A stretch of DNA of 64,000 nucleotides from a virus (IMGVR_UViG_3300044858_005176:2131-66130), one strand, 5' to 3'. Numbered from the stretch's first letter, positions 15,768-31,293 are shown. Translations and numbers: made by a program. Notes: generated by a model from the sequence alone, not told the origin.

Positions 15768-15806
15768 TTGCGGCTCATTTACAAGGTCTGGAGCGTTGAC
15801 CTGATT

Positions 15807-16727
15807 CTATGCGGCGGCCTTCTTGCCCTTCTTCACTCCCTTCGGGGAAGGGGTGATCCCGCTCTCGGCGAGCTGTCCAGCCAACTCGATGATACGGGCG
15901 GCGACAATCGCCTGGTCGTCGGGTGAGAGATCGGCAAAGGCCAACTCCACCTCGTCGAGGGTGGCCAGCACATCGGCGGCGGTGATGCCGACAGGCTCGG
16001 CATCTTCGCCAAGCGGCTCGTCAAGCTGGGCGACGACCTCAGCCAATCCCTTGGATGGGGATTCGGGCGCGGGGTGTCCGGCATTGGCGTCGGCAATCTC
16101 GGGATCGCTCTTGGCGTTGGCGGCCTGGGCGGCGGCCTCGGCCTTCAATGCCTCGTTCTCGGCCTTGACTCGGGCCAATTCCTCGGCCTCGGCCTCGGCT
16201 CGGGCCTTGGCATCGGCCTCGGCCTTCTCCTTGGCGGCGGCGACCTTGGCCTCGGCCTCGGTGCGCTCGGCGCTGGTCACGCCATGCTCGTAGATGCTGG
16301 CGAGTTCCTCGTCGGGTTCGCCACCGGCACGGATGACGGCGACGACCTCCTCGACGGAGAGCTTCTTGCGGCTCTTGGCCGTCTGCACGCGGCAGATGTT
16401 GAAGCAATCCGCGTGGGAGAGCTGGTCGTACTCGTCCTCCTTGAGCTGTCCGGCCTCGACCAGATCGAAGACCTTGGCGGCGTAGGAGGCGTTGCTGATG
16501 GTGCCCTTCTTGATGCCAGCGGCGATCAGGAGGGGGAAGATGCCTTTATCCTTCTTGGTCAGGCCGCTCTCGATTGCTCGGAACAGCTTGCCCATTGCGG
16601 AGAAGGCGCGTTGACCGGCACTCGCCTCGATACGGAAGCGGGTGATGCGGTCGGCCTGGGCCATGCCCTCGACCTCGGAATAGGAGAGGAACGGCACAGG
16701 AATCTCTGACTTGAGCTTTTTAGCCAT
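15807..16727 (-). CDS. Hypothetical protein, possibly DNA-binding, with Ala/Glu coiled coil
   Basis: Strong codon bias; directly downstream of the 39-bp palindrome. Confidence 0.75.
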   Translation of the reverse strand: MAKKLKSEIPVPFLSYSEVEGMAQADRITRFRIEASAGQRAFSAMGKLFRAIESGLTKKDKGIFPLLIAAGIKKGTISNASYAAKVFDLVEAGQLKEDEYDQLSHADCFNICRVQTAKSRKKLSVEEVVAVIRAGGEPDEELASIYEHGVTSAERTEAEAKVAAAKEKAEADAKARAEAEAEELARVKAENEALKAEAAAQAANAKSDPEIADANAGHPAPESPSKGLAEVVAQLDEPLGEDAEPVGITAADVLATLDEVELAFADLSPDDQAIVAARIIELAGQLAESGITPSPKGVKKGKKAAA

Positions 16728-16750
16728 GTTAGTGTGGGGTTGAACCCGTT

Positions 16751-16789
16751 ACCCATGAGCGAGTCTTACGATAAGACTCGCTCATGGGT
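16751..16789. promoter_or_regulatory. Perfect 39-bp palindrome containing site 5 (GTCTTA-CGA-TAAGAC)
   Basis: ACCCATGAGCGAGTCTTA-CGA-TAAGACTCGCTCATGGGT, 18-bp arms. Confidence 0.85.
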
Positions 16790-16887
16790 TGAGAGGTAGA
16801 ACATGGACGGGTGAAGCCATGTTCCGAAGGTCACTCACACGCATCACCGACGGGTAATGCGGAAAAAAAATTAAAAATTGGCCGCCC

Positions 16888-17484
16888 TTATTCGGGGCGG
16901 CGGTGATCCAAGGGATAGCCAGCGGTATAGATCCTGCTCGGCGTCCAAAATCCTCGGCGGCTATGCTGGCCGCTCGAGTTCTGCCAGATGCCCGGGGTGA
17001 TGTAGTTCCTGGGCTTTTCTTCCCTTGGCTTGAGAATCTCGGCGGCGGCGGTTTCCATCTCGGCGGCGGCGGTCTCGCCGCATCGTTCCTTCACAATCTG
17101 GGCGAAGCGCAACACGCTGGCCGGATCAGTATTAGGCACAATCTTAAAGGTATATTCACCGGCGGCACACTTCAGGAAGGAGATGGCCATTTTTTGCTCC
17201 TGCGATTTTCCCGTCTTGCTCACCTTGAAGCGGGGCGGGCTGAAGGATAGGAACATCTTCCCCTGCTCCATGCTGAAGGCTTGATCGCGAGTCTTACGAT
17301 AAGACTGCCGCGCGGCGCGCGCGGCGGCGCGGATGGCGGCGCGGCGCGCGTCAAATGCGGCGGCGGCGCGCAAGGCGGCGGCGGCGCGGTCGTCACTACT
17401 TGTCCAGGCGGCGACCGGAACGGCGGCGGCATGGAAAAGGCGGTCGGATGCTGAAGGCACGGGGCGGATTTTTTGTAGTTTCAT
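16888..17484 (-). CDS. Ala/Arg-rich hypothetical protein
   Basis: ATG 17484 lies just downstream of the hairpin; atypical GCC/GCG/CGC-rich codons. Confidence 0.6.
   Translation of the reverse strand: MKLQKIRPVPSASDRLFHAAAVPVAAWTSSDDRAAAALRAAAAFDARRAAIRAAARAARQSYRKTRDQAFSMEQGKMFLSFSPPRFKVSKTGKSQEQKMAISFLKCAAGEYTFKIVPNTDPASVLRFAQIVKERCGETAAAEMETAAAEILKPREEKPRNYITPGIWQNSSGQHSRRGFWTPSRIYTAGYPLDHRRPE
17291..17305. promoter_or_regulatory. Palindrome site 6 GTCTTA-CGA-TAAGAC
   Basis: Inside ORF (reads SYRKT). Confidence 0.7.
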
Positions 17485-17498
17485 AAGATGAAGGCACG

Positions 17499-17531
17499 AA
17501 AAAGGCGCGCGCATTTACGCGCGCGCCTTTT
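17499..17531. terminator. Bidirectional-type terminator hairpin
   Basis: AAAAGGCGCGCGC-ATTTAC-GCGCGCGCCTTTT. Confidence 0.7.
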
Positions 17532-17538
17532 CTTGAAA

Positions 17539-18294
17539 TTAAAGGGAAGACATATCGGCGGCCAGCATGGCGGCATCTAGTGAATTGAAGTCAAAGGCAT
17601 AGCGGCGAAGAGAGGCGGCGCGATCTTGCCAAGCGGAGCGGCGATTGTCGCCGCTTGTCGCAACATCTAAAACGGGACAATCCACGGCGAGCGGATCGCG
17701 CGCGCAAATCATGCGGCGGATTGTTTGCAAGTGATAACGCAAAGAGGCGCGCCGTTTGCGCGATTTATCGGCGGAGAAGGCGCGAAACGCGCGAGCGCGC
17801 AAATCGCGCGCAAGGCTGGCAAGCTTCAACCGCTCCGGCGCGCCGCGATAAGAGGCGCGCGGAGTGAGTGAGCGCGCAAAGTGAATCTCTTCTAGTTCAT
17901 CCTCGCGGCCCTTGTCGTGATTCCCTCCGTTCATGCGGAGAAGATCGCGCACAGATCGGAAAATCTCCGCGATCCCGTCTTCTTTTAAGTGAATGCCAGC
18001 CGCTATCAGGGCAAAGACTTCTTGAGCCGCGTCTTGCTTATCCTGCAAGGAAAGGCGGCGCGCTGGCCGCGCGTTCCATGCCGCGCGCCGTTGCGCGCGC
18101 GTCACCTTGCCAACCTTTGCGGGCGCGGTATCTTTGCGCGCCTTTGGATTTTCGATCCTATAGATGACGATTGACGCAAGGCGCGCCGACTCTTCATCTG
18201 GTGCGCGGAGGAAGGCAATCTCTTGCCTTCCTTCCTTTCGCTCCTTTTTGCTAGGGGTGACGATGTTAGTGAATTGGATTGTTGTAGTTTCCAT
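17539..18294 (-). CDS. First early gene; Arg-rich protein with a sigma-region-2-like segment
   Basis: DKQDAAQEVF...IFRSVRDLLR; start at ATG 18294 (or 18312). Confidence 0.55.
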   Translation of the reverse strand: METTTIQFTNIVTPSKKERKEGRQEIAFLRAPDEESARLASIVIYRIENPKARKDTAPAKVGKVTRAQRRAAWNARPARRLSLQDKQDAAQEVFALIAAGIHLKEDGIAEIFRSVRDLLRMNGGNHDKGREDELEEIHFARSLTPRASYRGAPERLKLASLARDLRARAFRAFSADKSRKRRASLRYHLQTIRRMICARDPLAVDCPVLDVATSGDNRRSAWQDRAASLRRYAFDFNSLDAAMLAADMSSL

Positions 18295-18321
18295 AGGCTG
18301 AAAATATCGCATGAAATTGCT

Positions 18322-18487
18322 CTATTTACTAGGGAAAACCGCTCCGCGCGTTCGCGCGTTCTTTCGCTTTCCCCTTCCTATTTACTAGGGAAAACCGCTC
18401 CGCGCGTTCGCGCGTTCTTTCGCTTTCCCCTTCCTATTTACTAGGGAAAACCGCTCCGCGCGTTCGCGCGTTCTTTCGCTTTCCCCT
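18322..18487. repeat. Three tandem 56-bp repeats with internal hairpin
   Basis: CTATTTACTAGGGAAAACCGCTCCGCGCGTTCGCGCGTTCTTTCGCTTTCCCCTTC units start at 18322, 18378, 18434. Confidence 0.95.
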
Positions 18488-18512
18488 CCGCGCGTTCACC
18501 CAGGCCCAGGAC

Positions 18513-18720
18513 AACTAAACATAGTTATGTATAACTAAACATACCACCCAGGAAAAATTTTGCTGAAAACTAACCCGTCGGTGATTTAGGTGAGCTAAAC
18601 TAATCCGTCGGTTAATTTAGTAAGTTATTTAACAAGCTTTTCAAAATTGCGGCATGAATTGAACGCGAATTGAACGCGGATTGAACACGGAGGGCCAGTT
18701 GTTCAATTCCCCGTCGGTAA
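18513..18720. repeat. AT-rich region with short direct repeats (possible packaging/end site)
   Basis: AACTAAACATA x2; AAACTAA(C/T)CCGTCGGT..TTTAG x2; G(A/G)ATTGAAC(G/A)C x3; CCGTCGGT x3. Confidence 0.7.
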
Positions 18721-18726
18721 ATCGCG

Positions 18727-18750
18727 GTTGACCGGCATCCTCTGGTTATG
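18727..18750 (+). promoter_or_regulatory. GTTGAC-N15-ATG element
   Basis: Precedes the gpW-like gene. Confidence 0.65.
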
Positions 18751-18996
18751 GCGTCACTCGAATGGATGGAAATTTACCGCTCCTACTCCCCTGAGGAGTT
18801 GGAGAGCGAAATCTTAATGCTCAAAGCCCAGGCCACTCTCTACACGAGCCAAAGCATCGGGGAAAAATCCCACACCAAAGACTTGGTGATGGTTCAGAAC
18901 CGGCTTCAAGCCGCCATCCGCGTCCGCAACGAGCGGGTCAATCTCTACTCCAATCCCTCCTACGGAGTTGCCGATTTCTCCAACGGGGTGAACTAA
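18748..18996 (+). CDS. Head completion/adaptor protein (gpW-like)
   Basis: 82 aa, helix-hairpin-helix pattern, immediately upstream of a lambda-type portal. Confidence 0.55.
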   Translation: MASLEWMEIYRSYSPEELESEILMLKAQATLYTSQSIGEKSHTKDLVMVQNRLQAAIRVRNERVNLYSNPSYGVADFSNGVN

Positions 18997-18997
18997 G

Positions 18998-20695
18998 ATG
19001 AACTTACTCGACCGCGCCATCTCCTTTGTCTCACCAGAAGCCGGTGTCCGTCGCGGAGTCGCGCGCGAGCAGTTGCGGCTCTTCGGCTACGATGCCGCCA
19101 TGCCAGGGGTGAAGCGTGGCCGCTCCGGATCCGCGCAAAAGAACGCCTCCAGCGAGAACTGGCGCTCCGCCCGTGACCGCATCGCCCTGATGTGGGATGC
19201 CCGTGATGTGACGCGCAACTTCGCCATCCTGCGCGGCATGGTGGCGCGCATCACCCAATATGTCTGCGACGGAACCTCCTATATCTCGCAGACGGGTGAC
19301 GACCAGGTGGACGCGGCCTATCAGAACTACTTCAATCAATGGGCCAGAAGCGCCGACCTGACCGGCCGCCACAACTTCGGTGATCTTGTCACGATGGCCT
19401 TCTGGGCCATGCTTGTGGATGGGGATCATGGCTGGAACATCCTCACCCTGCCCGACTCCCGTGGGATGCAGCGTATCCAGCTCCAAGCCATCGAATCCGA
19501 CCGGATCGGAAACCCCTACAATCCCGCCGAGACCAACCAAGGAAATAAGATCGGCGGCATCGAGGTCGATGAGCAGGGCAGGCCCATCAACTACTCCATC
19601 TACAAGAGAAGTCGCCTCACCGTCCAATACACCCACGAGCAGGACATCCCAGCCTCCCAATTCATCCATCTCTTTGATCCCCAGCGGGTCGATCAGTATC
19701 GTGGTGTCACGGCTCTAGCCACCGCCATCGCCCCTGCCCGCGATCTCTACGAAATCTACGAGTTCGAGAAGCAGGCCGCTAAATGGCAGGTCGGCCATGC
19801 CGGTGTCATCAAGGTAGCCGATCCGTTCAAGAACAATTCCGTCTCCCAATGGGACGACCGCAAGAGCGAAACAGGAACCGGCCCCGGCACGATGGAGATG
19901 GTGCCCGGCAAGATCCTGCGGCTCACCCAAGGCGAGGATGTGACCTTCAGCCCTGGCACGAACCGGCCCAACGGCGCATTCCTCAATCTCGTCCAGACCA
20001 TGATCAGGGAAATGTCCATGGGCATGAATATGCCCTACGGCTTCCTCTACGACATGAGTACCTTCGGAGGTCATGCCAGCCGCATCGAGATCGCCCAAGC
20101 CCAGCGGTGCATCCGACGCTACCAGAGGCTTCTCAAGGAGCAGGCGCTGGATCCCGTCCGCGATGCGGTGTTGAGCCTCGGCATTGCCCTCGGTGAACTC
20201 CCCTCCCACCCCTCTTGGCAGAATGGCCGATGGGGATTCGGATCCTCGCTCTCGGGCGACTACGGCAACGACACCGCCGCCAATATGCAGAGGCTCCAGA
20301 TGGGACTGGTCACGGCCAGCGACCTCATTAGCGAGACGGGTCAGACCTTCGAGGAAGTGGTTCGGCGACAGGCTACCGAAGTCCAGTATATGCAGAGGGT
20401 TGCCAGCGAGACGGGTGTGCCCATTGAGCTGATGAGCCAGCGTCTGGCCGGTGCGACCGATCAGCTTGCGGCCATGAACACGCCGCCCCAGCCCCCGTCG
20501 AGCCTCATGGAGACGGGAACCGATGTCAAACCGCTCCTCGACATCCTCAAGAATGTGGGTGAGGGGATCATGGATCGCCAAAGCGCCATCACCTCCATCG
20601 TCAGCCTCTACGGCCTCAATCCCGCCGAGGTGGATAAAATGGTGCCTCAGCAGGGCAAGAAGGAAGAGCCATCAGTCAAAACGGAGGAAGAATAA
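18998..20695 (+). CDS. Portal protein, lambda family
   Basis: MNLLDRAISFVSP, YDAA, LQAIESDRI, GIEVDEQGRP..Y, HLFDPQRVDQYRGV. Confidence 0.92.
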   Translation: MNLLDRAISFVSPEAGVRRGVAREQLRLFGYDAAMPGVKRGRSGSAQKNASSENWRSARDRIALMWDARDVTRNFAILRGMVARITQYVCDGTSYISQTGDDQVDAAYQNYFNQWARSADLTGRHNFGDLVTMAFWAMLVDGDHGWNILTLPDSRGMQRIQLQAIESDRIGNPYNPAETNQGNKIGGIEVDEQGRPINYSIYKRSRLTVQYTHEQDIPASQFIHLFDPQRVDQYRGVTALATAIAPARDLYEIYEFEKQAAKWQVGHAGVIKVADPFKNNSVSQWDDRKSETGTGPGTMEMVPGKILRLTQGEDVTFSPGTNRPNGAFLNLVQTMIREMSMGMNMPYGFLYDMSTFGGHASRIEIAQAQRCIRRYQRLLKEQALDPVRDAVLSLGIALGELPSHPSWQNGRWGFGSSLSGDYGNDTAANMQRLQMGLVTASDLISETGQTFEEVVRRQATEVQYMQRVASETGVPIELMSQRLAGATDQLAAMNTPPQPPSSLMETGTDVKPLLDILKNVGEGIMDRQSAITSIVSLYGLNPAEVDKMVPQQGKKEEPSVKTEEE

Positions 20696-23600
20696 TGGAA
20701 CTCAACGACACAGCCAAAGCCGTCTGGAGGCATTACTACAAGGGGGCCAAGAAGGTCCTACGCTCTACAAAGGGAAAGCTTGGTGGCGATCTTGAGGGCT
20801 ACATGCCATCTGACAGAAATCGCTCGAAGTTTGGGTTGGTATGGAGGGGAACGCACAAGGGAGAGGTCGAGACTATTGCCGAACAGGGCAGTTTTAAGAG
20901 CAAGTGGACGAACCCCAATTTCCCCAATCGTCCGCGCACCTATGTCGCTGGAAGTGCAACCAAGCCAGAAGCATACGCCATCACTTCTGCCGCTCATCTT
21001 GGGGGACAATCGGATTCCACGGGATTTCCTTCTTCTGTGGGAGGGCTTTTGGATCGGGAAAAAAGCCTTCCCCATGCGCGTATCTACGGGATCGCCCCTC
21101 ATGTAGAGCGCCGCGCTGACCGAAAGGTGAGGGGTTGGGTTGGCGACTCTGCCGCAACAGCCCCTATTCGTGGAGGCATCAATCGCAATGAAGTCCGCGC
21201 TTTATTGAAACCCACGGGGGTCAAGGAGGATAAAAACAAATGGGGTGAAGTCAGAGGCAGGAGCGTGCTCTGGAAACCCACACCCCTTGGCGACATCCAG
21301 AAGAAAAACTTCTCCGCTCTGAAAGAATTTACCATGAAAAAACGATTCAAAAAAGTTGTCAAAAACCTCAAGACTGGCCGCACCAAGACCGTTCGGTATG
21401 GTCAGGCTGGTCAGGCCAAGGACGGAGGCGATCGCATCCGTCCAGGCACCTCCAAGGGTGACGCTTACTGCGCCCGATCCAATTCCATCAAGGGGGATTG
21501 GAGGGATGACCCGAATTCACCCAATAACTTGAGCCGTCGCAAATGGAAATGCCGTGGAAGCAAATCCATGAAGAAGCTCTCAAGGTTGACGCTTGGCCTC
21601 AAGGGTATGAAGCAATTCCAGTCTTACCATAAGACTCCGTCAGAGGAGCGAGGTGATTTCATCAAAACAGGGATCCTCTCTGCTGGCGTGGCCGGTGGCT
21701 TGGGGCTTGCGGGACTGGCCCTGCGCAACTCCGTGGGAAAGATCGAACGCGCCGAGATCGCTCGTAATGCCGTCAATCGGGTCGTGGCTGCCCAGCGAAA
21801 TTCCAAGGCCAACAGCGCGGTCAATCCCGCAGTCCAAACGATGACTCAGGATGCCTCCATTGCGGCTCAAAAAGTCAGGGAGAAAAAGGTCGCTTCCCTG
21901 AAAAAACAGGACAAGGGATTCACCAAGATGGTCAAGCAGGCACAAAAGAACCCCAATCTGTCCCCCCTCGAAAAAGAGGAATACGCCAAGGGTCATGCCA
22001 GATGGCGTGAAAAAAACGCGCGCTACACGGCATTCGAGACGGCAACCGTCATCCGCCAGAAGCGCGACACGCTTTCCAAGGTGCGTGACGCCGCCCAGCT
22101 TGCCGGTGGTCTGGGAGTTCTTGGAGCGGCGGGATACGCGGGATACCGCGCCCATGGTCTCTACAAATTGGGCAAGGCCCAGATCCCTGCCATTTCGGAA
22201 GTCATCCAGAAGGAAGCCCCAAGCGTGGCTCGCTACGCCAAGGCTACGTTCCGCTCCGTGAACAAAAGTGCCAACAAGGTTGGCAAGACGGCCGGAACCA
22301 TCAATGAAAACGTCCCTGCCATCCGCAAGTCGATTGCCGATGGGCCGCTTGGACGATTCCCATGGCAGAGCAAAAAGCTGAGTGCCAAGTATTTCGAGGA
22401 AGAGCGCAAGAGCGCAAAGAGTCGCCTTGCCGTCGCGGGAGTTCTCGGCGCAGGAGTCGGGCTTGGCATAGCCGCCGCGCCCGGCCTTCGCCGCATCGAG
22501 AAGGTTGCCAAGAAGACAATCCGCTCCGCAGGGAATGTCGCCGACCGGCTCGCCTCCACTCAGGACAATCTCCGCCATTCCACTTCCATCTACGCCGACA
22601 TGGGAAGGATTTATTCCAAGATCAAGCCCGAAGTGATGGGAGGGGTGCATAACATCCTCCACCCCATCCAGACCCTCAAGGAGACCCGTGCGGCCTTCAA
22701 GGCCGGTCTGGCTGGCCAGAAAACCTATCCGAAGGCCCAGCGTCCAGCATGGGCCTTGAACGCCAAGCTGAAGCTCCGCGAGTTTGACGAAAAGAAATCC
22801 AGCGTTGGCCGCAAGATTGCCGTCGGTGCCGCGATCGGCGGCGGTGCGCTGGCCGGTGGAGTGCTTGGAGCAAGGACTCTCCCGAGGCTGATTTCTAGGG
22901 GCCGTCCGATGCGTGAAGGCGAATCGCTGATGGGCAAGGTCGTCTATAGCTATCAGGGCAAGACAACCCCTGCCGAAATCTATCATCTCCCTGATGGCAA
23001 GAATCTCAGAGGCATCCTGCACCGCGCTGGCAAGCGCGAGGGGATGACCGGCAAGATGGCTCGTGGGGCCATGAAGGTGGATGATTTCCTCGGAATCCCC
23101 CAGCGTCATTACGCCGTTGGAGTGGGATCTGGCCGTGTCGCCGAGGTCTCCAAGACCCATGGCCGCCGCATCATCCCCGAAGAGAAGCTGGGGAAGATCA
23201 TGGTCGATAGCGAAGGAACCATCCTGAAGGATCCCCATGGGCCCCGGCCCCATGTCGAAGGGGGCATCCATACGAATGCCAAGGAAATCGAGGGGATGAA
23301 CAGCCGCTACGAAGCCGCCCAAAGCGATCCTCGCTTCAAGAGGGGGTCCATCAATCCAGCCACTTGCAACAACTGTGAAAGCTATGCTCGCGGTATCGCT
23401 GGTCAGGGCTTCCGCTCCCGACAGGTCTCGGCCATCTATGGAGGTGCCGCTGGTGGTGCCCTCCTCGGAGGAGGTGCGGTAGCCGCCTTGACTCGCAAGA
23501 AGAAGAAGGAATTCGATTTTGAAATCACCGAGGGAGGCGTCCCCTTCACGGGGAAGATCGCCCGTGACCGCTTCATCAAGCGCATTCACGAGGACGACCT

Positions 23601-25440
23601 CAACCGCCGTGACTCCAACATGGCCAAGGCGGCCTTGGCCTCCGGTGCGGCAGGAGCACTCACGGGATCTACTTCCAAATCCAGACTCATCCGCGCCGCT
23701 CTCGCGGCAGGGGCCGGTGTGACGGGGGTGGCTGGTATTCGCCAGATCACCCAGCGTGACATCTACGGCGAACGCTCCCGAACCGGCAAGCGTGCCGAAC
23801 TGCTCCCAGCAGTCGGCGCAGTCGGCGCCGCAGGAGCCATCCTTGCCAAGAAAGCCAAGCTGTTCTCATGGGAACTCCTTCGACTTGCCGAAGAGCGCAA
23901 GAAGCTTCAGCGAGTCACCCGTCCGATCATGAAAAAACAACCCGTCCAATCCGAAAGCTGGGATGAGGGTCTCTCCGTCATCCGCGCGGTTCGCAACGCC
24001 ACGGGCATGGACAAGTCTCCGAAGCAACCCGTGAAGTTCTTTGAGCAGAAGAAATCGCTCAACCCCTATCTCGGAGCCGCCGTCTCGGGTGGACTCTCTG
24101 GAGGATCCCTGGGTGCGCTCTCCATTCTCCGCAGGGGGACATCGCTCCGCTCGGCGGCAGCATCGGCTGGCAAGTTGGGCGCGGTCTCCGCTGGAATTGT
24201 CGGCGGCGGTGCCCTGATCGGTAGCAAGATCATCGGCAATCCTCGTTCCGAAGAATCCACTCCCTTCACCAAGCGTGCCGCCATTGGCGGTGCCATCACG
24301 GGAGCGGCGGCGGGATTGGCCGGAGGGATTGCCCTTCGCAAGACCCGTGGGGGCGCTCGTCTGCTTGTCGATGCCTCCAAGTCATGGCGACCAGCCGTGG
24401 CCATCCGCAAGGCCCCTGTTGCCGGGGCAGTCGGCATCGGCACCATCGGCGGCGCTCTCTACGGCGGCGGCATGGGTGCCGATGAGGGTCAGCAGGTGGA
24501 TACGCTCATCAACCTGAAAAAGGACATGAAGAAGTCCAAGGAATTCGGCTACCAGAATCAGCCTCGCCGCGCAGGAACGGCCACATACATGCCCGATGGG
24601 ACGACCAAGTGGACACGCGATCGCGGCACCTTCGCCCAGCCTGTTCGCGCGAAATTCGGTCTGGAAGGGCCGATGATGAGAATTAGCTCAGTGACCGGCA
24701 AGCCCACCACTCCTGGCGATCCCGAGGGCATCGTCCCATCCTTCACTCAGGCCCAGATGGTCAAAGGCTTCTACAACAAGGGTAAGGAGATCAACAAGTG
24801 GGGAGGCCGTGGTGCCGGTCTGCTTGGTGACGCAGGAAGCGTGCTGGCCGGTCAGGAGAGGGCGCGTGACGCATCCGGTCGGGTCAAGAAACGCGAATGG
24901 GAAAAGAGTTGGTTCCGCAATGCCGTGGGATCTGCCGCCGCCGCCGCTGGTCTGGCCGGAGCCGCCTATGTCACAACCAAGACTCCCTTTGGGCAAAAAC
25001 ACATGCTCCCCAGGTTGAGGAGTGTGGTCAAGTACGGCGAGAGCAAGGGGGTCAGTCTTCTTACCGCCAATCTCAACAAGCTCAAGCAGTTCGATGATTG
25101 GGCCGCCTACCACGGCTGGGATGTGCGCGATCCTCGCGGCCGCTCGGCCCGGGTCTTTGCACCCGGCTCGCGCGCCCGTTCACGCCGCGAAAAGGAATGG
25201 CATGAGAAGAAAGATAACCGCGAAACCCTTTACAAGGCCGCTGTGGTCGGGGCGATCGGCCTCGGAGCCGCCGCAGGATATGCCGGAACCCGCATCGCTG
25301 GTGGCCTGCCCGTCATTCCACGCTCCGTGAAGAGCGTCTTCAAAGCCAAACCGATCAGCGTGGAGGCCGCCGAAGAGCAACTCAAAGCGGCCAAGCTCCG
25401 CGCCAACGCCAGCAACATCACACCCTTCCCAAGGAGTTAA
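20695..25440 (+). CDS. 1581-aa modular head-cargo polyprotein (ART-like, DUF6321-like, LRAT-like, glycine-zipper modules)
   Basis: Coupled to portal (TAATG); very basic; repeated GxxxG hydrophobic helices; modules end in K/R-E/Q-F-type motifs. Confidence 0.75.
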   Translation: MELNDTAKAVWRHYYKGAKKVLRSTKGKLGGDLEGYMPSDRNRSKFGLVWRGTHKGEVETIAEQGSFKSKWTNPNFPNRPRTYVAGSATKPEAYAITSAAHLGGQSDSTGFPSSVGGLLDREKSLPHARIYGIAPHVERRADRKVRGWVGDSAATAPIRGGINRNEVRALLKPTGVKEDKNKWGEVRGRSVLWKPTPLGDIQKKNFSALKEFTMKKRFKKVVKNLKTGRTKTVRYGQAGQAKDGGDRIRPGTSKGDAYCARSNSIKGDWRDDPNSPNNLSRRKWKCRGSKSMKKLSRLTLGLKGMKQFQSYHKTPSEERGDFIKTGILSAGVAGGLGLAGLALRNSVGKIERAEIARNAVNRVVAAQRNSKANSAVNPAVQTMTQDASIAAQKVREKKVASLKKQDKGFTKMVKQAQKNPNLSPLEKEEYAKGHARWREKNARYTAFETATVIRQKRDTLSKVRDAAQLAGGLGVLGAAGYAGYRAHGLYKLGKAQIPAISEVIQKEAPSVARYAKATFRSVNKSANKVGKTAGTINENVPAIRKSIADGPLGRFPWQSKKLSAKYFEEERKSAKSRLAVAGVLGAGVGLGIAAAPGLRRIEKVAKKTIRSAGNVADRLASTQDNLRHSTSIYADMGRIYSKIKPEVMGGVHNILHPIQTLKETRAAFKAGLAGQKTYPKAQRPAWALNAKLKLREFDEKKSSVGRKIAVGAAIGGGALAGGVLGARTLPRLISRGRPMREGESLMGKVVYSYQGKTTPAEIYHLPDGKNLRGILHRAGKREGMTGKMARGAMKVDDFLGIPQRHYAVGVGSGRVAEVSKTHGRRIIPEEKLGKIMVDSEGTILKDPHGPRPHVEGGIHTNAKEIEGMNSRYEAAQSDPRFKRGSINPATCNNCESYARGIAGQGFRSRQVSAIYGGAAGGALLGGGAVAALTRKKKKEFDFEITEGGVPFTGKIARDRFIKRIHEDDLNRRDSNMAKAALASGAAGALTGSTSKSRLIRAALAAGAGVTGVAGIRQITQRDIYGERSRTGKRAELLPAVGAVGAAGAILAKKAKLFSWELLRLAEERKKLQRVTRPIMKKQPVQSESWDEGLSVIRAVRNATGMDKSPKQPVKFFEQKKSLNPYLGAAVSGGLSGGSLGALSILRRGTSLRSAAASAGKLGAVSAGIVGGGALIGSKIIGNPRSEESTPFTKRAAIGGAITGAAAGLAGGIALRKTRGGARLLVDASKSWRPAVAIRKAPVAGAVGIGTIGGALYGGGMGADEGQQVDTLINLKKDMKKSKEFGYQNQPRRAGTATYMPDGTTKWTRDRGTFAQPVRAKFGLEGPMMRISSVTGKPTTPGDPEGIVPSFTQAQMVKGFYNKGKEINKWGGRGAGLLGDAGSVLAGQERARDASGRVKKREWEKSWFRNAVGSAAAAAGLAGAAYVTTKTPFGQKHMLPRLRSVVKYGESKGVSLLTANLNKLKQFDDWAAYHGWDVRDPRGRSARVFAPGSRARSRREKEWHEKKDNRETLYKAAVVGAIGLGAAAGYAGTRIAGGLPVIPRSVKSVFKAKPISVEAAEEQLKAAKLRANASNITPFPRS
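21621..21635. promoter_or_regulatory. Palindrome site 7 GTCTTA-CCA-TAAGAC
   Basis: Inside polyprotein (reads SYHKT). Confidence 0.7.
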
Positions 25441-25442
25441 GA

Positions 25443-26450
25443 ATGAAAACCGACAAAAACTGGGGATCCATCGCCCGTGCCGCCGCCGAGCGGAGTCACA
25501 AGTCCGAACTCACCGAGCGGACCGCCGCTCTGAAGAAGGCCCACGAAAAGATCGAGGAGTTGGAAAGCCGACTGGATGTTGTCAGCGCCCTTGCCTCTAA
25601 GAAGCCGGTCAAGAAGTCGCTTGTGCCAGTCGAGTTGGACGGGGGGCAGGCCACCGCCGTCATCTGTGCCTCCGACTGGCATGTGGAGGAAAGCGTCTCC
25701 TCCAATTCCACCAACGGCCTCAATGAGTTCAATCTTTCGATTGCCGAGGATCGCATCAAGAAATTCTTCTCGAGTGCCATCCGTCTTACCGAGATCCAAC
25801 GAAATGGTGCCGACATCGAGGACTGCATCCTCTGGTTGGGGGGCGATTTGATGAGTGGCTACATTCATGAGGAATTGCAGGAAACCAACTCCCTCTCGCC
25901 GACCGAGACCATTCTCTGGCTCAAGGGCAGGCTCGAGGAGGGCATCGCGTATGTCCGCAAGAACTTCAAGACCACCACGATAGTATGCAGCTATGGGAAT
26001 CACGGTCGCACCACCAAGAAACCAAGGCATGCCACCGGCTTCCAGAACAGCTACGAGTGGCTTCTCTACAGCATCCTTTCCCAGCAGATCACGGGTGATG
26101 ACATCTCCTGGGTGGTGGCCGACAGCTATCTCAGCTTTGTGAAACTCTATGGCAAGACCCTGCGCTTTCACCATGGCGATCAACTCCGCTACCAAGGCGG
26201 AGTCGGTGGCCTGACCATTCCGGTCGAGAAGGCCATCGCAAGCTGGAACCGCGCGCGGGTGGCGGATCTGGATGTCTTTGGGCATTGGCACACGCAGCAA
26301 CAAAATCCGAAGTGGATCTCCAACGGCAGCCTTATTGGGTTTAATGCCTATGCGGTGAGCATCAAGGCCGCCTATGAAAAGCCTCAGCAGACATACTTCC
26401 TGTATGACCGCGACCGAGGCCGAACCATCACAGCCCCCATTATCCTATGA
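25443..26450 (+). CDS. Calcineurin-like metallophosphoesterase
   Basis: SDWH, GGD, GNHGR, HHGD, GHWH. Confidence 0.88.
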   Translation: MKTDKNWGSIARAAAERSHKSELTERTAALKKAHEKIEELESRLDVVSALASKKPVKKSLVPVELDGGQATAVICASDWHVEESVSSNSTNGLNEFNLSIAEDRIKKFFSSAIRLTEIQRNGADIEDCILWLGGDLMSGYIHEELQETNSLSPTETILWLKGRLEEGIAYVRKNFKTTTIVCSYGNHGRTTKKPRHATGFQNSYEWLLYSILSQQITGDDISWVVADSYLSFVKLYGKTLRFHHGDQLRYQGGVGGLTIPVEKAIASWNRARVADLDVFGHWHTQQQNPKWISNGSLIGFNAYAVSIKAAYEKPQQTYFLYDRDRGRTITAPIIL

Positions 26451-26878
26451 AGTGGAAGAAACTTGTCTGCCGTCAGAACTCGCGCGTCTATTCCTGGCCT
26501 GCGGGCTGGGATACGTCAGAGTCCATCGCCGAACAACTGGAGTGCAGTGCCGAGCGGGTGCGTGAGCATCTGGCTCCCAGCATCAAGGCGGGGGAGGTCG
26601 AGATGAAGAGCTTCATGGTCTGGGATCGGGATACCGGCCGCAAGGTATCCAAGACCGGCTTCCGCATCGTGGAAAAGTCGCAAGATCGACAGGAATCCGT
26701 CGAAACTGGCTCGAAACGCCCCAATAGGTGGCCGTTCTACGAGGGGGCCAAGATCGTGCGACCCGATTCCCCCAAGCGCATTGGGGTGATCAAGGCTGGG
26801 CGGATCCATTGGTCAGACGGGAAGGTGACCGTCCCGAATTCCCCTAGCCAACGCTCCAAGCTCCGCTTGTCCAAGTGA
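26447..26878 (+). CDS. Hypothetical protein (possible winged HTH)
   Basis: ESIAEQLECSAERVREHL; ATGA overlap. Confidence 0.6.
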   Translation: MKWKKLVCRQNSRVYSWPAGWDTSESIAEQLECSAERVREHLAPSIKAGEVEMKSFMVWDRDTGRKVSKTGFRIVEKSQDRQESVETGSKRPNRWPFYEGAKIVRPDSPKRIGVIKAGRIHWSDGKVTVPNSPSQRSKLRLSK

Positions 26879-27249
26879 AGGCTCCCAACGAGCATTGCGT
26901 TCCGGTGGAAATCTACCGTGACGAGTGCTGGATCGTCTGGCCGGTGGATCACCGATCGGCCTTGGCGTGGCTTCATCGCCGTGGGTTTAAGAAGCCCAAG
27001 CATGTGCATGAACTTCGAGGGGCCGATGGCCTCTGTGTGCGAACCAAGTCAGCCAGCGTCATCTTCTTGACCGAATGGAAATCGACTCCCTCGATGCATG
27101 GCGTCCTGGCTCATGAAACCCTCCATGCAGCCCGAGACATCCTCAATAGCCGAGGCGTCCGCGAGAAGAGGAAGCATGAGGAGGCCACTACCTATTTGCA
27201 ACAATACCTGGTGGAAAAAATCCTCCAGCGACTTTTGCGCAAGAGTTGA
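26875..27249 (+). CDS. HExxH metallopeptidase-like protein
   Basis: VLAHETLHAA...HEEATTY. Confidence 0.65.
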   Translation: MKAPNEHCVPVEIYRDECWIVWPVDHRSALAWLHRRGFKKPKHVHELRGADGLCVRTKSASVIFLTEWKSTPSMHGVLAHETLHAARDILNSRGVREKRKHEEATTYLQQYLVEKILQRLLRKS

Positions 27250-27270
27250 CGCAGGGGGGAGGTGGGTATG
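27245..27270 (+). promoter_or_regulatory. GTTGAC-N17-ATG element
   Basis: Precedes ATG 27268. Confidence 0.6.
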
Positions 27271-28059
27271 AACCACATGACCCGCCTTAAAGAACTTTCC
27301 GCTCGTTGCACAGTTAAAGAATTCAAGACTCCAGAGGAAAGCTATGGGCATGGATCTGAAGGTGATGCCGCGAGAGTCATCCTTCCGATTGCGGCTGGCG
27401 CGGTTATTGGCGGCAGGGCATCTCACCTTGTCGAGGGTGGAGTAAGACGAAAAGGGCTAACACCTTTTATCAAAAGATCGGAAGAGGTGGTCAGGAATCA
27501 TCCAGGTATGTCAGAGGCTTCTTCCAAAAGGTTTGTTAAGATTGCAGATGCAGCTTCGGCTCGGGTCCTAAAGGCAGGCCGCTACGCCGGTGCAGGAACG
27601 ATGGTTGCTGGTGTTGCTGCTGGCGTTGGCGCGGGGCTAAAATGGCAACGTGCGGCCGCTAACCGCCGCGCGCAAAACAAGAACCTCTCTGCAAAGACCC
27701 GCCTGACAGAACTTTCTCGCAAGTGTGAGTTCGGCCTCTTCACGACCAATCGCCCCAAGTATAACGAGGTGGGCCAGTTCGAGGGGATGGACAGGAGCCT
27801 CAACCCCGTAGGAATCGCCGCAGGGGCCGCTGGCCTCGGTGCCGCTGGCCTCGGTGCCGCCGCTGGCCACAAGGCCATCATGAACCGCTATGGTCAGGAT
27901 GGTGTGAAGCAAGCCTACACGGCCGCTGCCGGTGATGCTCTTTCAGCCGCCAAGGGCGGTATCTCCTCGGGGGCTTCCGCACTCGGCAAGAACATCCCAC
28001 GCGGTGGGTTCGGATCCAAGGTGCGCGGCCTGCTGGCCACCCTTGCCAAGCTCCGCTAA
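27268..28059 (+). CDS. Second glycine-zipper head-cargo protein (two modules)
   Basis: RLKELSARCTVKEF and KNLSAKTRLTELSRKCEF; GxxxG helices. Confidence 0.7.
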   Translation: MNHMTRLKELSARCTVKEFKTPEESYGHGSEGDAARVILPIAAGAVIGGRASHLVEGGVRRKGLTPFIKRSEEVVRNHPGMSEASSKRFVKIADAASARVLKAGRYAGAGTMVAGVAAGVGAGLKWQRAAANRRAQNKNLSAKTRLTELSRKCEFGLFTTNRPKYNEVGQFEGMDRSLNPVGIAAGAAGLGAAGLGAAAGHKAIMNRYGQDGVKQAYTAAAGDALSAAKGGISSGASALGKNIPRGGFGSKVRGLLATLAKLR

Positions 28060-28065
28060 TAAGCC

Positions 28066-28554: not shown

Positions 28555-28657
28555 ACACACGCTAAAGAAACGCCCGTGGAGCCGAGGACTGATTGCGCAG
28601 GGAGGAATACCGGAGGCGCATCGGATCAAGTAGGCCTCCCACGGGCCATTCTCTTCC

Positions 28658-28682
28658 GTTGACGGGGGTGCCATTGGGCATG
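28658..28682 (+). promoter_or_regulatory. GTTGAC-N16-ATG element
   Basis: Points to protease start ATG 28680. Confidence 0.65.
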
Positions 28683-29933
28683 AAGGAATTCTCCTCTCCG
28701 AATCTTGAACTCTCAGGCCGCGTCGATCCCGTCAATGGGGTCATCCACGGGGTCTCCGTCATCACCAGTGGCGTCACCGCCCGTGGCCACAACCTTGAGG
28801 TGGACATGAAGACGCTCCACCAACTCCTGGAATGCGGCCAGAAGATGGGCACGGTTCCCGTTAAGTGGAATCACCGCTCCGGTGCCGATGCAGTCGCCGG
28901 TTATATCGACAACTTCCGTATCGAAGGGGAGAAGCTCCTGGGCGACTGGCATCTCCTCAAGAGCCATTCCCAATACGAGCAGGCCATGGAAATGGCCGCT
29001 CGCATGCCCAAGAATGTGGGCCTTTCTGCGGCGTTCATGGGCGATGATGAAAAGCTCTCCGGTGGCAAGATGGCTGCCCGATGCCACGAACTCATTTCCA
29101 TCGATGTCGTGGCAACTCCAGCGGCCAATCCGACCGGTCTTTTTGAGGCCAAAGTTGACAACGCTACCATGAAGGAAACGCTTATGGACAACCAGAACAC
29201 AACCCAGCCCGAAGGTGCCGACCCGTCGCTTGCCGATGTGATGGCCGCCATCTCCACCATCAACGAGCGCCTCGACAAGCAGGATGCTCTCAACGCTCAA
29301 CTGCACCAGCAGGATAACGAGAACGATGACCTTACCATCGAGGATCTACTGACCCTGACTCCCGAACAGGTCAGCCAACTCGTCGCCGAGGGCCATCTCT
29401 CCGAGGAGGATGCCGCCGGTATCGCGGCACTCCAGGCCGAATACACCGCCGGTGACGAGGAGGGTTCTGAGGCCGAAGAGTCTTCCGAGGCCGGATCGAC
29501 CGAAGGTGCCGAGGCAGGGGTTGGAGCAGGAGCCGCCGCTGGCGAGTTCTCCGCTCTCCAAAATTCCGTCCGCGAGCTTTCCGCGCGCTTCGAGCGCGAG
29601 GATGCCACCCGCGAGAACGCCGAGATTGAGCATCATTTCTCGGTCATCGAGGGGAACCTCAAGGAACTTTCCAGCGAGAATGCTTCCCTCAAGGAACTTA
29701 ACGATCGTCTCTCCACCCAGAACGAGGCCATGCGCCACGCCCTGAAGACCGGCATCCGTCCTCTGGCATTCTCTGCCGAGGGTGAGGCCGTCACCGGCAC
29801 TCCCGGCAAGGTTCACGAGTTCACCGGTCTGGTGAAGAAGTACCGCGACCTGGGCAAGACCGATGCCGAGGCCATCCGCTTCGCTCACAAGGACAACCCT
29901 GAGGCCCACGCCGATTATCTCCGCAATCTCTAA
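28680..29933 (+). CDS. Prohead protease (HK97/clan SH-like) fused to acidic scaffold
   Basis: VKWNH (His), VGLSA (Ser), ELISIDVVATPAANPTGLF; coiled-coil acidic C-half; upstream of capsid genes. Confidence 0.8.
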   Translation: MKEFSSPNLELSGRVDPVNGVIHGVSVITSGVTARGHNLEVDMKTLHQLLECGQKMGTVPVKWNHRSGADAVAGYIDNFRIEGEKLLGDWHLLKSHSQYEQAMEMAARMPKNVGLSAAFMGDDEKLSGGKMAARCHELISIDVVATPAANPTGLFEAKVDNATMKETLMDNQNTTQPEGADPSLADVMAAISTINERLDKQDALNAQLHQQDNENDDLTIEDLLTLTPEQVSQLVAEGHLSEEDAAGIAALQAEYTAGDEEGSEAEESSEAGSTEGAEAGVGAGAAAGEFSALQNSVRELSARFEREDATRENAEIEHHFSVIEGNLKELSSENASLKELNDRLSTQNEAMRHALKTGIRPLAFSAEGEAVTGTPGKVHEFTGLVKKYRDLGKTDAEAIRFAHKDNPEAHADYLRNL

Positions 29934-30336: not shown

Positions 30337-31293
30337 ATGTACAACACAACCGATTCCGTCCCCCGTCAGGACATCTCCACCCTCCTCATGGAGGCCGTCC
30401 ACCAGGACCAGCACTTCATCGCGCAGAACGTCCTGCCCATCTACGGCAGCGAGCGCGAGGTGGGTCGCTATCCCAAGTTCCGCCTCGGTAAGGGTGAACT
30501 CCTCAAGAAGGAGAGCCAGAAGCGCAACTCCACCGGCACCTACAACGAAAGCGACGAGAGCTTCGAGTGGGACAGCTACCAGACCGAGGAATACGGTCAC
30601 GAGAAGCGTGTCGACGACAAGGTCTCCAAGCAGATGCGCGATTTCTTCGACGCTCAGATGGTGACTGCCAAGTTCTGCATGAACAAGGTCATGCTCGACT
30701 ACGAGGTTCAGGCCGCTTCCGCGCTCATGGATCCCGCCACCTTCGCCAACACCAATGGCACGGTCGCCTACACCGAGAGCAATCTCAACACCATCGATCT
30801 CCCTCAGGACATCAATGCGGCGCTTGAGAAGATGACGCTCATCGGAGAGTCCCCGAACACCATGATCCTGTCCCTGCAGGTCTTCAACCGCCTCAAGAGG
30901 AGCAAGCTCCTTCAGACCTACCTCTACGGGTTCCTCAACACCACGCAGGGCGGTGCCAACATCACCACCCAGACGATCTCGGCTGCCTTCGGCATCCCGA
31001 ATATCGTCATCGCCAAGAAGAGCATCGACACCGCCATCAAGGGCAAGACTGCCGTGGCTCCTGTCTGGGGCAACGACTACATCTGGATCGGAGATGTCCA
31101 GGGTGGCGACTTCATGGCCGGTGGCGCAGGCCGCACCATCATCTGGGACGCGGACAGCGAGGGCGGCTTGTTCACGACGGATCAGTACCGCGACGAGGCT
31201 CGTCGTGGCGACAAGATCCGCGTGCGCTCCAACCGCACCGTCAAGATCATCAACCCCAACGCTGGCTACCTCATCGGAACCCAGTGGGCCTAA
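30337..31293 (+). CDS. Major capsid protein
   Basis: 318 aa, position and strong codon bias; FIAQNVLP, PNTMIL, AGYLI C-terminus; followed by terminator. Confidence 0.85.
   Translation: MYNTTDSVPRQDISTLLMEAVHQDQHFIAQNVLPIYGSEREVGRYPKFRLGKGELLKKESQKRNSTGTYNESDESFEWDSYQTEEYGHEKRVDDKVSKQMRDFFDAQMVTAKFCMNKVMLDYEVQAASALMDPATFANTNGTVAYTESNLNTIDLPQDINAALEKMTLIGESPNTMILSLQVFNRLKRSKLLQTYLYGFLNTTQGGANITTQTISAAFGIPNIVIAKKSIDTAIKGKTAVAPVWGNDYIWIGDVQGGDFMAGGAGRTIIWDADSEGGLFTTDQYRDEARRGDKIRVRSNRTVKIINPNAGYLIGTQWA

What the first reader, a model, noticed from the sequence alone, without database searches (positions are those of the whole stretch)
20695..25440. Head-cargo polyprotein of about 11 modules punctuated by a recurring Phe motif
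Seen: the ORF is coupled to the portal and reads as short unrelated modules, most with a GxxxG/AxxxG hydrophobic helix flanked by basic residues. Each ends in a similar junction: KNFSALKEF|T (F 21328), KKLSRL..MKQF|Q (21616), RYTAF|E (22033), KKLSAKYF|E (22393), LNAKLKLREF|D (22783), KKKEF|D (23512), KAKLF|S, PVKFF|E (24037), KKSKEF|G (24544), LTANLNKLKQF|D (25090). Established: prohead proteases process internal head proteins (T4 gp21 with IPI-III). Inference: one gene is packaged into the prohead and cut into about 11 ejected effectors, namely membrane-inserting peptides plus enzymes, giving an expandable delivery array.
Basis: partly seen in the sequence, partly recalled or inferred. Interest (0 to 1): 0.9.

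Follow-up and report, generated by a model that had tools for sequence, protein, structure and literature searches.

The report
Phage polyprotein with repeated Phe-ending linkers
A giant gene next to the portal gene of an uncultured Verrucomicrobia phage is a chain of swappable protein cassettes joined by one short conserved linker ending in phenylalanine, which is probably where the phage's own head protease cuts it into separate pieces.

Summary
ORF 20695-25440 (1581 aa) overlaps the portal stop codon (TAATG) and has 10 junctions of the type basic-x-Phe|acidic/small. Relatives show the full linker, about [NK]-[LF]-S-A-[KR]-L-[KR]-x-[LIM]-[KR]-[EQFY]-[FL]|[DEGSAN].

Of 237 architecture breakpoints against 105 homologs, 167 lie within 10 aa of a junction Phe, where about 13% is expected. 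The closest relative lacks exactly one 89-aa cassette plus one linker.

Pfam domains in relatives (DUF6321, InPase) sit between linkers, and DUF6321 sits at different places in different proteins. The same motif occurs in a second small Gly-zipper protein (27262-28059) and at both ends of the neighbouring protease-scaffold protein (28680-29933). That protein's N-domain has the T4 gp21/herpes assemblin fold, with invariant His65 and Ser116.

Packaging, cleavage and ejection are inferred, not shown. The closest known concepts are polyvalent phage proteins and T4 internal proteins with their capsid-targeting leader. I class this as a new variant of a known kind. All six genomic relatives found are in Verrucomicrobiota.

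The parts
18998..20695 (+). Portal protein (lambda family). Its stop codon overlaps the polyprotein start.
   Evidence: PF05136 E 7.4e-51 and phrog_21. TAATG overlap plus GGAGG upstream.
20695..25440 (+). Polyprotein P0001, 1581 aa, 11 modules (A-K) separated by 10 Phe-ending linkers.
20695..21330 (+). Module A (aa 1-212). Soluble, possibly an ADP-ribosyltransferase-like fold. Ends ...KKNFSALKEF|.
   Evidence: AF2 pLDDT 61.8. VIA best Z 5.3, but most of the 50 rows are ART-fold proteins. Foldseek finds nothing at E<=1e-3. Present in about 10 of 91 homologs.
21331..21618 (+). Module B (aa 213-308). A DUF6321-like cassette that is absent from the closest relative.
   Evidence: tblastn matches free-standing small ORFs in 12 phage records over aa 227-300. 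The 89-aa cassette is missing in P0002. DUF6321 is bracketed by linkers in P0012, P0005 and P0004. Pfam does not hit P0001 itself.
21619..22035 (+). Module C (aa 309-447). A Gly-zipper stretch at 325-343 followed by a helical part. Ends RYTAF|.
   Evidence: HSP ends at 441 and starts at 447.
22036..22785 (+). Modules D (aa 448-567) and E (aa 568-697). Each starts with a Gly-zipper stretch. P0002 has a single 160-aa D/E-type segment instead.
22786..23514 (+). Module F (aa 698-940). Gly-zipper stretches at both ends around an LRAT/NlpC-P60-like His...NNC-E core.
   Evidence: BLASTP to P0084, E 3e-4, over the segment where P0084 hits Pfam LRAT. No direct Pfam hit.
23515..24546 (+). Modules G (aa 941-1057), H (aa 1058-1116, variable) and I (aa 1117-1284). 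This is the conserved Gly-zipper-rich core, with 7 hydrophobic stretches.
   Evidence: Covered by 70 or more of 91 homologs, except H..
24547..25437 (+). Modules J (aa 1285-1466) and K (aa 1467-1581). The most conserved part. A locus with only these two modules plus a leader exists (L011, 286 aa).
   Evidence: Invariant blocks RDASGR..KREWEK.WF and GWDVRDPRGRSARVFAPGSR..
27262..28059 (+). Second, small polyprotein-like ORF (265 aa). It has a leader ending ...LKELSARCTVKEF| and an internal linker ...RLTELSRKCEF|, each followed by Gly-zipper stretches.
   Evidence: Syntenic ORFs are present in L003, L004, L007, L008 and L013.
28680..29933 (+). Prohead protease (aa 1 to about 150, assemblin fold) fused to an acidic coiled-coil scaffold. 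Conserved Phe at the N-terminus (MKEF|) and near the C-terminus (K.HEF|).
   Evidence: AF2 pLDDT 73. Foldseek: T4 gp21 5jbl_A, E 3.7e-4, probability 1.00, followed by herpesvirus proteases. H65 and S116 invariant, F4 and F381 at least 90% conserved in 30 sequences.
30337..31293 (+). Major head protein.
   Evidence: phrog_1005 E 2.1e-38. tblastn to major capsid proteins of 16 phage records at 22-26% identity.

Best explanation
The gene encodes a head-associated polyprotein built from exchangeable cassettes. Each cassette carries a linker of about 12 aa, an amphipathic stretch that ends in [KR]-x-[FL].

Proposed mechanism, with each step marked shown or inferred.
1. The gene is translated together with the portal gene (the overlap is shown; coupling is inferred).
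2. The protein enters the prohead (inferred).
3. The neighbouring assemblin-fold Ser/His protease cuts after the Phe or Leu of each linker (inferred). It also trims the leader of the small Gly-zipper protein and its own two ends (inferred).
4. The linker may first act as a targeting leader, like the T4 capsid-targeting sequence (inferred).
5. The released pieces leave with the DNA (inferred).

The conserved Gly-zipper core (G, I, J, K) would be membrane-active entry proteins. The variable N-terminal cassettes (A, B, F; InPase in relatives) would be accessory enzymes or effectors.

Shown here: the modularity, the conservation of the linker, cassette gain, loss and shuffling at the linkers, and the protease fold with its conserved residues.
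For: Linker statistics.
- P0001 has 8 hits against 0.21 in shuffles.
- 71,686 aa of homolog sequence that does not BLAST-align to P0001 has 24 hits of 12 bits or more against 1.7 in shuffles.
- 104 further family representatives not used to build the matrix have 105 hits in 62 of 104 proteins against 5.25 in shuffles.

Borders and cassettes.
- 167 of 237 breakpoints lie within 10 aa of a junction Phe. Ten random non-junction Phe give a mean of 35 and a maximum of 83 in 2000 draws.
- P0002 lacks one 89-aa cassette, with the breakpoints inside the linkers.
- DUF6321 is tightly bracketed by linkers and sits at different positions in P0012/P0005 and in P0004.

Constraint at protein level.
- The longest DNA match shared by any two junctions is 10 nt or less, and synonymous codons vary.
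- At junction 1466, P1 is F, L or Y in 81 of 81 aligned homologs.

Same motif in other head-module proteins.
- It occurs in the small ORF's leader and at an internal site.
- It occurs at the protease's ends: F4 and F381 are at least 90% conserved, and F4 lies in a low-pLDDT stretch (F381 sits just after one).

Protease. The fold is that of T4 gp21, and H65 and S116 are invariant.

Gene order. Portal, polyprotein, small Gly-zipper protein, protease-scaffold and MCP keep this order in L003, L004, L007, L008, L009 and L013.

Precedent. T4 internal proteins are diverse cargo that share only a capsid-targeting sequence (PMC3012670, passages). SPN3US head and ejection proteins are cut by the prohead protease at a motif (PMC10052503, passages).
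Against: - There is no direct evidence of packaging, cleavage or ejection.
- P1 Phe/Leu differs from the specificities recalled for assemblin-fold proteases (T4 L/I-x-E; giant phages A-x-E, the latter seen).
- F447 is not recognised by the matrix.
- 70 of 237 breakpoints are not at junctions. They cluster near 540/611-624, 1038 and 1342-1372.
- 42 of 104 further family members have no hit of 10 bits or more.
- The distant loci L010, L011 and L012 have none of 9 bits or more in the homologous ORF. Their junctions keep only x-x-[FL]|G/D.
- N-terminal leaders are not enriched: 19 of 191 proteins against about 21 expected from site density.
- The protease matches no Pfam or NCBIfam protease model.
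Confidence: 0.55

Rival explanations
1. The protein stays in one piece in the virion. The linkers are amphipathic hinge or docking helices, either repeated scaffold- or capsid-binding peptides for avidity or interfacial helices before each membrane segment. They are not cut.
For: - The linker has an i, i+4, i+7 hydrophobic pattern and in modules C-F precedes a Gly-zipper stretch by 11-19 aa.
- ORF 28066-28314 and its L007 homolog end in a half-motif (..RLKEL.. and ..RLTEL..) with no Phe after it, which looks like a C-terminal tag.
- The N4 virion RNA polymerase is a giant packaged protein that is not processed (PMC5512222, passage).
Against: - The most conserved positions are P1 (F/L/Y) and P1' (D/E/G/S), which persist even where the helix part has decayed.
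- The motif also sits at the extreme N-terminus of the soluble protease and before soluble modules (B, J, K).
Confidence: 0.2
2. The polyprotein is cut at the linkers, but by another enzyme: its own LRAT/NlpC-P60-like module F, the small HExxH protein (26875-27249), or a host protease.
For: - Polyvalent proteins are predicted to process themselves through embedded peptidases (PMC5512222, passages).
- Module F has a His...Cys core.
- ORF 26875-27249 carries an HETLH sequence.
Against: - Module F is covered by only about 8-12 of 91 homologs, while the linkers run through the whole family.
- ORFs 25443-27249 are absent between the polyprotein and the small ORF in L003, L004, L007 and L008.
- The assemblin-fold protease is present in all of those loci.
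Confidence: 0.08
3. The linker similarity is only a trace of how cassettes spread, by duplication and recombination together with their flanks. It has no function of its own.
For: - The cassette indel in P0002 has its breakpoints inside the linkers.
- Modules D and E look like a tandem duplication.
Against: - No shared DNA stretch longer than 10 nt exists among the junctions in the window.
- The linker consensus is kept at orthologous junctions where the flanking modules are only 35-50% identical.
- The motif is also found on unrelated proteins, the protease and the small ORF.
Confidence: 0.07
4. The protein is not head cargo. It might be a membrane protein made in the infected cell (exclusion or lysis) or a tail or entry component assembled outside the head.
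For: - It has many hydrophobic stretches.
- Weak sub-threshold Pfam rows point to pore formers: ApoL 0.0039, SctB2 0.028, holin 0.2.
- There is no MuF or other known head-protein domain.
Against: - The gene overlaps the portal gene and lies inside a conserved head-gene block ending with protease-scaffold and MCP.
- Relatives carry InPase, described mainly in phage polyvalent proteins thought to be packaged.
Confidence: 0.1

Closest known systems
Polyvalent proteins of phages and conjugative elements (Iyer et al. 2017, PMC5512222; abstract and passages read)
   Same: - Many unrelated domains in one phage polypeptide.
- Encoded beside portal and packaging genes.
- Proposed to be packaged and delivered with the DNA.
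- The InPase domain (PF18823) occurs in homologs P0005, P0012 and P0016.
- Extensive mosaicism.
   Different: - Here the domains are separated by one conserved Phe-ending linker.
- Most modules carry Gly-zipper hydrophobic stretches.
- No embedded Zn-peptidase was found.
- Processing is proposed to occur in trans by the prohead protease.
- In the passages I read the paper describes no such linker. Its supplementary architecture lists could not be seen.
T4 internal proteins (IPI-III, Alt) with capsid-targeting sequence and gp21 protease
   Same: - Diverse cargo that shares only a short conserved leader.
- An assemblin-fold prohead protease.
- A possible ADP-ribosyltransferase-like cargo, as with Alt (recalled).
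   Different: - In T4 the cargo proteins are separate small genes, not one ORF.
- The T4 site is L/I-x-E (recalled), whereas here P1 is Phe or Leu.
- There is no sequence homology.
Ejection and inner-body proteins of phiKZ-like giant phages (SPN3US gp245 substrates)
   Same: Head-internal ejected proteins are cut at a recurring motif, sometimes at several sites in one protein (PMC10052503, passages).
   Different: - In those phages the cleavages mostly remove N-terminal propeptides that are discarded.
- They are not arrays of retained functional cassettes.
- The motif there is A-x-E.
Ejectosome proteins of podoviruses (P22 gp7/16/20, T7 gp14/15/16)
   Same: Capsid-stored proteins with membrane-active parts that build a DNA conduit (abstracts).
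   Different: - They are separate genes with no linker motif.
- No homology was detected.
- The tail type of this phage is not established.
Capsid-internal polyprotein maturation in other viruses (for example retroviral Gag; recalled)
   Same: One precursor is cut inside the assembled particle by a co-packaged protease at short, similar sites.
   Different: The lineage and protease class are unrelated. This is an analogy only.

Membership tests
Polyvalent proteins (Iyer et al. 2017) | 2 to 15 distinct domains in one polypeptide encoded by a phage or plasmid | tested here: met
   11 modules. Module borders are confirmed by homolog breakpoints and by cassette indels.
Polyvalent proteins (Iyer et al. 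2017) | Genomic context with portal and terminase packaging genes | tested here: met
   The start codon overlaps the portal stop. The same order is found in L003, L004, L007, L008, L009 and L013.
Polyvalent proteins (Iyer et al. 2017) | Carries conflict-type effector domains catalogued in that study | tested here: inconclusive
   P0001 has no Pfam hit. Homologs carry InPase. Modules A and F have only weak ART-like and LRAT-like signals.
Assemblin-fold prohead proteases (T4 gp21, HK97 gp4, herpesvirus) - for ORF 28680-29933 | Assemblin or gp21 fold | tested here: met
   Foldseek: 5jbl_A, E 3.7e-4, probability 1.00, TMt 0.52. Next come the HCMV, KSHV and HSV proteases. The N-domain pLDDT is mostly 80-94.
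Assemblin-fold prohead proteases - for ORF 28680-29933 | Conserved catalytic Ser and His | tested here: inconclusive
   H65 and S116 are invariant in 30 sequences. Their superposition on the gp21 catalytic residues was not checked.
Assemblin-fold prohead proteases - for ORF 28680-29933 | Match to a curated protease family model (Pfam or NCBIfam) | tested here: not met
   No protease family at E<=5 in Pfam and none in NCBIfam. The PDB profile search gave only coiled-coil noise.
T4 capsid-targeting-sequence cargo system | Short conserved leader on otherwise unrelated cargo | tested here: met
   The same linker or leader precedes unrelated modules and also occurs on the small ORF and the protease. 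This is an analogy, not homology.
T4 capsid-targeting-sequence cargo system | Cleavage after L/I-x-E by the prohead protease | tested here: not met
   P1 is Phe, Leu or Tyr, not Glu. Cleavage itself cannot be tested here.
ADP-ribosyltransferase fold - module A | ART fold with an NAD-binding core | tested here: inconclusive
   Model pLDDT 61.8. VIA best Z 5.3, with most rows ART-fold proteins. Foldseek PDB and BFVD give nothing at E<=1e-3. Atlas lead Arr, 0.88. Catalytic residues were not examined.
LRAT / NlpC-P60 - module F | His...Cys (NCE-type) catalytic core and a match to the family model | tested here: inconclusive
   No Pfam hit on module F. BLASTP E 3e-4 to the part of P0084 that hits PF04970 at E 1.6e-5.
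DUF6321 (PF19846) - module B | Match to the Pfam model | tested here: inconclusive
   No hit on aa 213-308 at E<=5. P0001 aa 248-441 aligns to P0005 aa 657-826, which overlaps P0005's DUF6321 at aa 625-697. Free-standing relatives exist in 12 phage records.

The most novel reading that the evidence does not exclude
These phages would have a plug-and-play cargo system. Any domain flanked by the 12-aa Phe-ending linker would be carried into the prohead as part of one portal-coupled polyprotein, cut free by the assemblin-fold protease and ejected with the DNA. The array would have grown from a minimal form, a leader plus modules J-K (as in the 286-aa L011 protein), by repeated cassette insertion at the cleavage site. 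That would make it a tailed-phage counterpart of capsid-internal polyprotein maturation, and it would imply a P1-Phe/Leu specificity for this protease fold.
Probability: 0.45. Interest if true: 0.85.

Novelty: new variant of a known kind. Interest (0 to 1): 0.68.

Why it matters
If the linkers are protease sites, the family gives a simple, readable rule for what a phage loads into its head and delivers to the host.

- It would give a natural library of delivered effectors. The family has 492 clusters at 50% identity with E<=1e-3, and their cassettes differ.
- It would give a defined tag that could be tested for packaging foreign proteins.
- It would extend the known specificity of assemblin-fold proteases.
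- It would open a poorly known host group. All 6 genomic loci found are in Verrucomicrobiota, including a prophage-like locus in the isolate Verrucomicrobium sp. BvORR034.

Tried and rejected
Searches that found nothing.
- Whole-protein Pfam and NCBIfam, and PHROGs apart from one weak row, phrog_33643 at E 0.0025.
- Per-module Pfam at E<=5 gave only sub-threshold rows.
- megablast of 18000-31500 against GenBank phages: no match.
- tblastn of the protease against phages: no match.
- PDB profile search with the protease alignment: coiled-coil noise only.
- Atlas search of modules J-K: best score 0.77, uninformative.
- A single-protein scan of genome contigs found nothing. The alignment scan found 6 loci.

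Analyses that did not work well.
- Residue enrichment at all-vs-all HSP ends gave Phe 2.6-fold. I set it aside because BLAST tends to end alignments on high-scoring identities.
- Cutting all homologs at seed-matrix sites and clustering the pieces failed. It gave a mean of only 1.6 cuts per protein, and single linkage chained the core into one group.
- The search for shorter or split forms returned 14 proteins, mostly from contigs of 1-10 kb that are probably truncated.
- The N-terminal leader test showed no enrichment: 19 of 191 against about 21 expected.

Complex prediction. Protease domain (aa 10-152) with polyprotein aa 1446-1485 gave no verdict (score 0.02, mark 0.32). I count it neither for nor against.

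Ideas rejected.
- A DNA-level repeat as the source of the motif.
- Module F or the HExxH ORF as the general processing enzyme, because most relatives lack them.

Literature. Searches found no paper describing such a linker or a tailed-phage cassette polyprotein. DUF6321 occurs in 0 papers. A sixth search, on phages of Verrucomicrobia and virion proteomes, was about hosts, not the linker, and listed nothing on this family. Only listings and abstracts were seen, except passages of PMC5512222, PMC10052503 and PMC3012670. Supplements were closed, so the polyvalent-protein architecture lists could not be checked.

Full report
**What is there.** ORF 20695-25440 (+) encodes 1581 aa. It starts on the last base of the stop codon of a lambda-family portal gene (PF05136, E 7.4e-51). 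The overlap reads TAATG, with GGAGG upstream. The protein is rich in Ala, Gly, Lys and Arg and has 38 Phe. The one exception is that the junction Phe of PVKFF|E is F1116 at 24040, not 24037. Fourteen Gly/Ala-rich uncharged stretches of 15-25 aa lie in 8 of the 11 modules. In modules C-F the first stretch begins 11-19 aa after a junction.

**Is the motif more than chance?**
- A simple pattern, [KR].F[DEQSTGN], occurs 11 times against 2.7 in shuffles.
- I seeded a position matrix with the ten sites plus two sites in ORF 27262-28059, then rebuilt it four times from non-redundant hits in 91 homologs with P0001 left out.
There are 8 hits of 8 bits or more, against a mean of 0.21 and a maximum of 2 in 300 shuffles. 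F447 fails.
- Across 84 ORFs of the window there are 8 hits in this ORF, 2 in ORF 27262-28059 and 6 in the other 82 ORFs. The 83 ORFs other than this one (18,894 aa) together have 8 hits against 3.5 expected from shuffles.
- The seed matrix finds 24 sites of 12 bits or more in 71,686 aa of homolog sequence that does not BLAST-align to P0001, against 1.7 in shuffles.
- The refined matrix finds 105 sites in 62 of 104 further family representatives that played no part in building it, against 5.25 in shuffles.

**The fuller motif.** Windows of homologs aligned to each junction show what P0001 partly hides. The linker is about 12 aa: [NK]-[LF]-S-A-[KR]-L-[KR]-x-[LIM]-[KR]-[EQFY]-[FL], followed by D, E, G, S, A or N. 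Examples are LSAKLRGLKEF|G, AFSAKLKRLREL|D and NLASRLRAIKFF|E. At junction 1466, P1 is F, L or Y in 81 of 81 aligned homologs. In the most distant members only x-x-[FL]|G/D remains. Junctions in the window share no DNA stretch longer than 10 nt, and synonymous codons vary, so the constraint acts on the protein.

**The junctions are module borders.**
- The word-indexed search returned 91 large homologs of 884-2622 aa, and they are mosaic.
- More than 70 of the 91 cover aa 941-1057 and 1117-1540. Only 2-15 cover any part of aa 1-940.
- I extracted 237 architecture breakpoints (insertions, deletions, replacements and order changes) from comparisons with 105 homologs. Of these, 167 lie within 10 aa of a junction Phe, while 13.3% of the protein lies that close.
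- Ten randomly chosen non-junction Phe capture a mean of 35 and at most 83 in 2000 draws.
- The 70 exceptions cluster near 540/611-624, 1038 and 1342-1372.
- The closest relative, P0002 (79-94% identical across its three aligned blocks), lacks exactly 89 aa: module B plus one linker. The breakpoints lie inside the linkers, KKNF[SALKEF...KKL]SRLT....
- In P0012 and P0005 the Pfam domain DUF6321 begins 13 aa after one linker and ends 12 aa before the next. In P0004 the same domain sits at a different place in the chain, again between Phe sites. InPase ends 33 aa before a linker.
- Module B also exists as a free-standing small ORF in 12 phage records, for example an 84-codon gene in Roseobacter phage CRP-7.
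- In L011 the gene after the portal is only 286 aa: a leader ending ..RRLREL|G plus modules J-K. This suggests that the arrays grew by cassette insertion.

**Neighbours.**
- Gene order is kept in L003, L004, L007, L008, L009 and L013: portal, polyprotein, small Gly-zipper protein, protease-scaffold, a 118-196-aa protein, then MCP.
- The small protein (27262-28059) has a leader ending ..LKELSARCTVKEF| and an internal ..RLTELSRKCEF|, each followed by Gly-zipper stretches.
- ORF 28680-29933 has no family-model match. Its AlphaFold model from a 30-sequence alignment has pLDDT 73, with the N-domain mostly 80-94.
- That model matches the T4 gp21 capsid assembly protease (5jbl_A, E 3.7e-4, probability 1.00) and then herpesvirus proteases.
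- H65 and S116 are invariant. The rest of the protein is an acidic coiled coil, as in scaffold fusions.
- F4 (..LKEF|..KFF|..YEF|) is at least 90% conserved and lies in a low-confidence segment; F381 (K.HEF|E) is equally conserved and lies just after one. This fits self-trimming sites.

**Module identities (weak).**
- Module A: model pLDDT 61.8. No Foldseek hit at E<=1e-3 in PDB or BFVD. The exhaustive VIA search gives best Z 5.3, yet most of its 50 rows are ADP-ribosyltransferase-fold proteins. An Atlas lead to Arr scored 0.88.
- Module F aligns (E 3e-4) to the part of P0084 that matches Pfam LRAT.
- I treat both as leads only.

**Range.** A profile of the core finds 492 clusters (50% identity representatives) at E<=1e-3 and 198 at E<=1e-30, out of 1.84 billion proteins. 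No GenBank phage shares the core. All 6 loci found in species-representative genomes are Verrucomicrobiota. Three lie on contigs of 120 kb to 1.9 Mb, so they are likely prophages.

**Interpretation.** The pattern has three parts.
- One conserved short peptide sits at every border between unrelated cassettes.
- The same peptide sits on a neighbouring head-module protein and at both ends of the protease.
- An assemblin-fold protease is always present in the same gene block.

This is the pattern expected of processing sites, possibly doubling as a targeting leader as in T4. I give it 0.55. It remains inference, because nothing here shows packaging, cutting or ejection. The P1 Phe/Leu differs from the sites known for this protease fold. 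The complex prediction gave no verdict (listed only under Tried and rejected). The main rival is an uncut protein whose linkers are docking or hinge helices.

**Comparison with what is known.** The gene fits the definition of a polyvalent protein (PMC5512222, passages). It works like T4 internal-protein loading, with three differences: a fixed Phe-ending linker, Gly-zipper modules, and concatenation into one ORF. My literature searches found no description of this arrangement.

Noticed in passing
window 25443-27249 (+): Three ORFs lie between the polyprotein and the small Gly-zipper ORF and are absent at that place in L003, L004, L007 and L008. They are a 335-aa protein matching phrog_284 'exonuclease' (E 3.1e-39), a 143-aa ORF, and a 124-aa protein (phrog_1365) with an HETLH (HExxH-like) sequence. 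This looks like an inserted block.
   Followed up: partly
window 28066-28314 (+); L007 13543-14715: A small protein (82 aa) ends in a half-linker, ..SFKERLKELAMRK, with no Phe. Its L007 homolog is 390 aa and ends ..GRLTELSAWSKTLRKASKG. It could be a C-terminal tag version of the motif.
   Followed up: partly
window 21640-23589 (-): A 649-codon antisense ORF lies inside the polyprotein gene. It is probably a by-product of the Gly/Ala-rich, GC-rich coding strand and not a gene.
   Followed up: no
L010 (Verrucomicrobium sp. BvORR034), L011, L013: Relatives of the head-gene block lie on contigs of 120 kb, 250 kb and 1.95 Mb of Verrucomicrobiota genomes. Temperate members therefore probably exist, one of them in a cultured isolate.
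   Followed up: partly
L014 2940-3194 (Roseobacter phage CRP-7 gp65): A free-standing 84-codon homolog of module B sits among small ORFs about 0.5 kb upstream of the large terminase gene. Similar small ORFs occur in 10 Vibrio phage records; in 7 of the 10 the match lies within about 100 bases of the end of the record.
   Followed up: partly
window 30953-31903 (+): The frame overlapping the end of the MCP gene contains a Walker-A-like GYAGSGKS stretch. A shorter real gene, a kinase or NTPase-like protein, probably starts downstream of the MCP stop.
   Followed up: no
window 1-18312 (-): The left arm is transcribed in the opposite direction. It carries replication-type genes: a helicase (phrog_62), a ParB-like protein, an ATPase (phrog_8638) and a DNA polymerase processivity factor (phrog_947). 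No large terminase was identified next to the portal.
   Followed up: no
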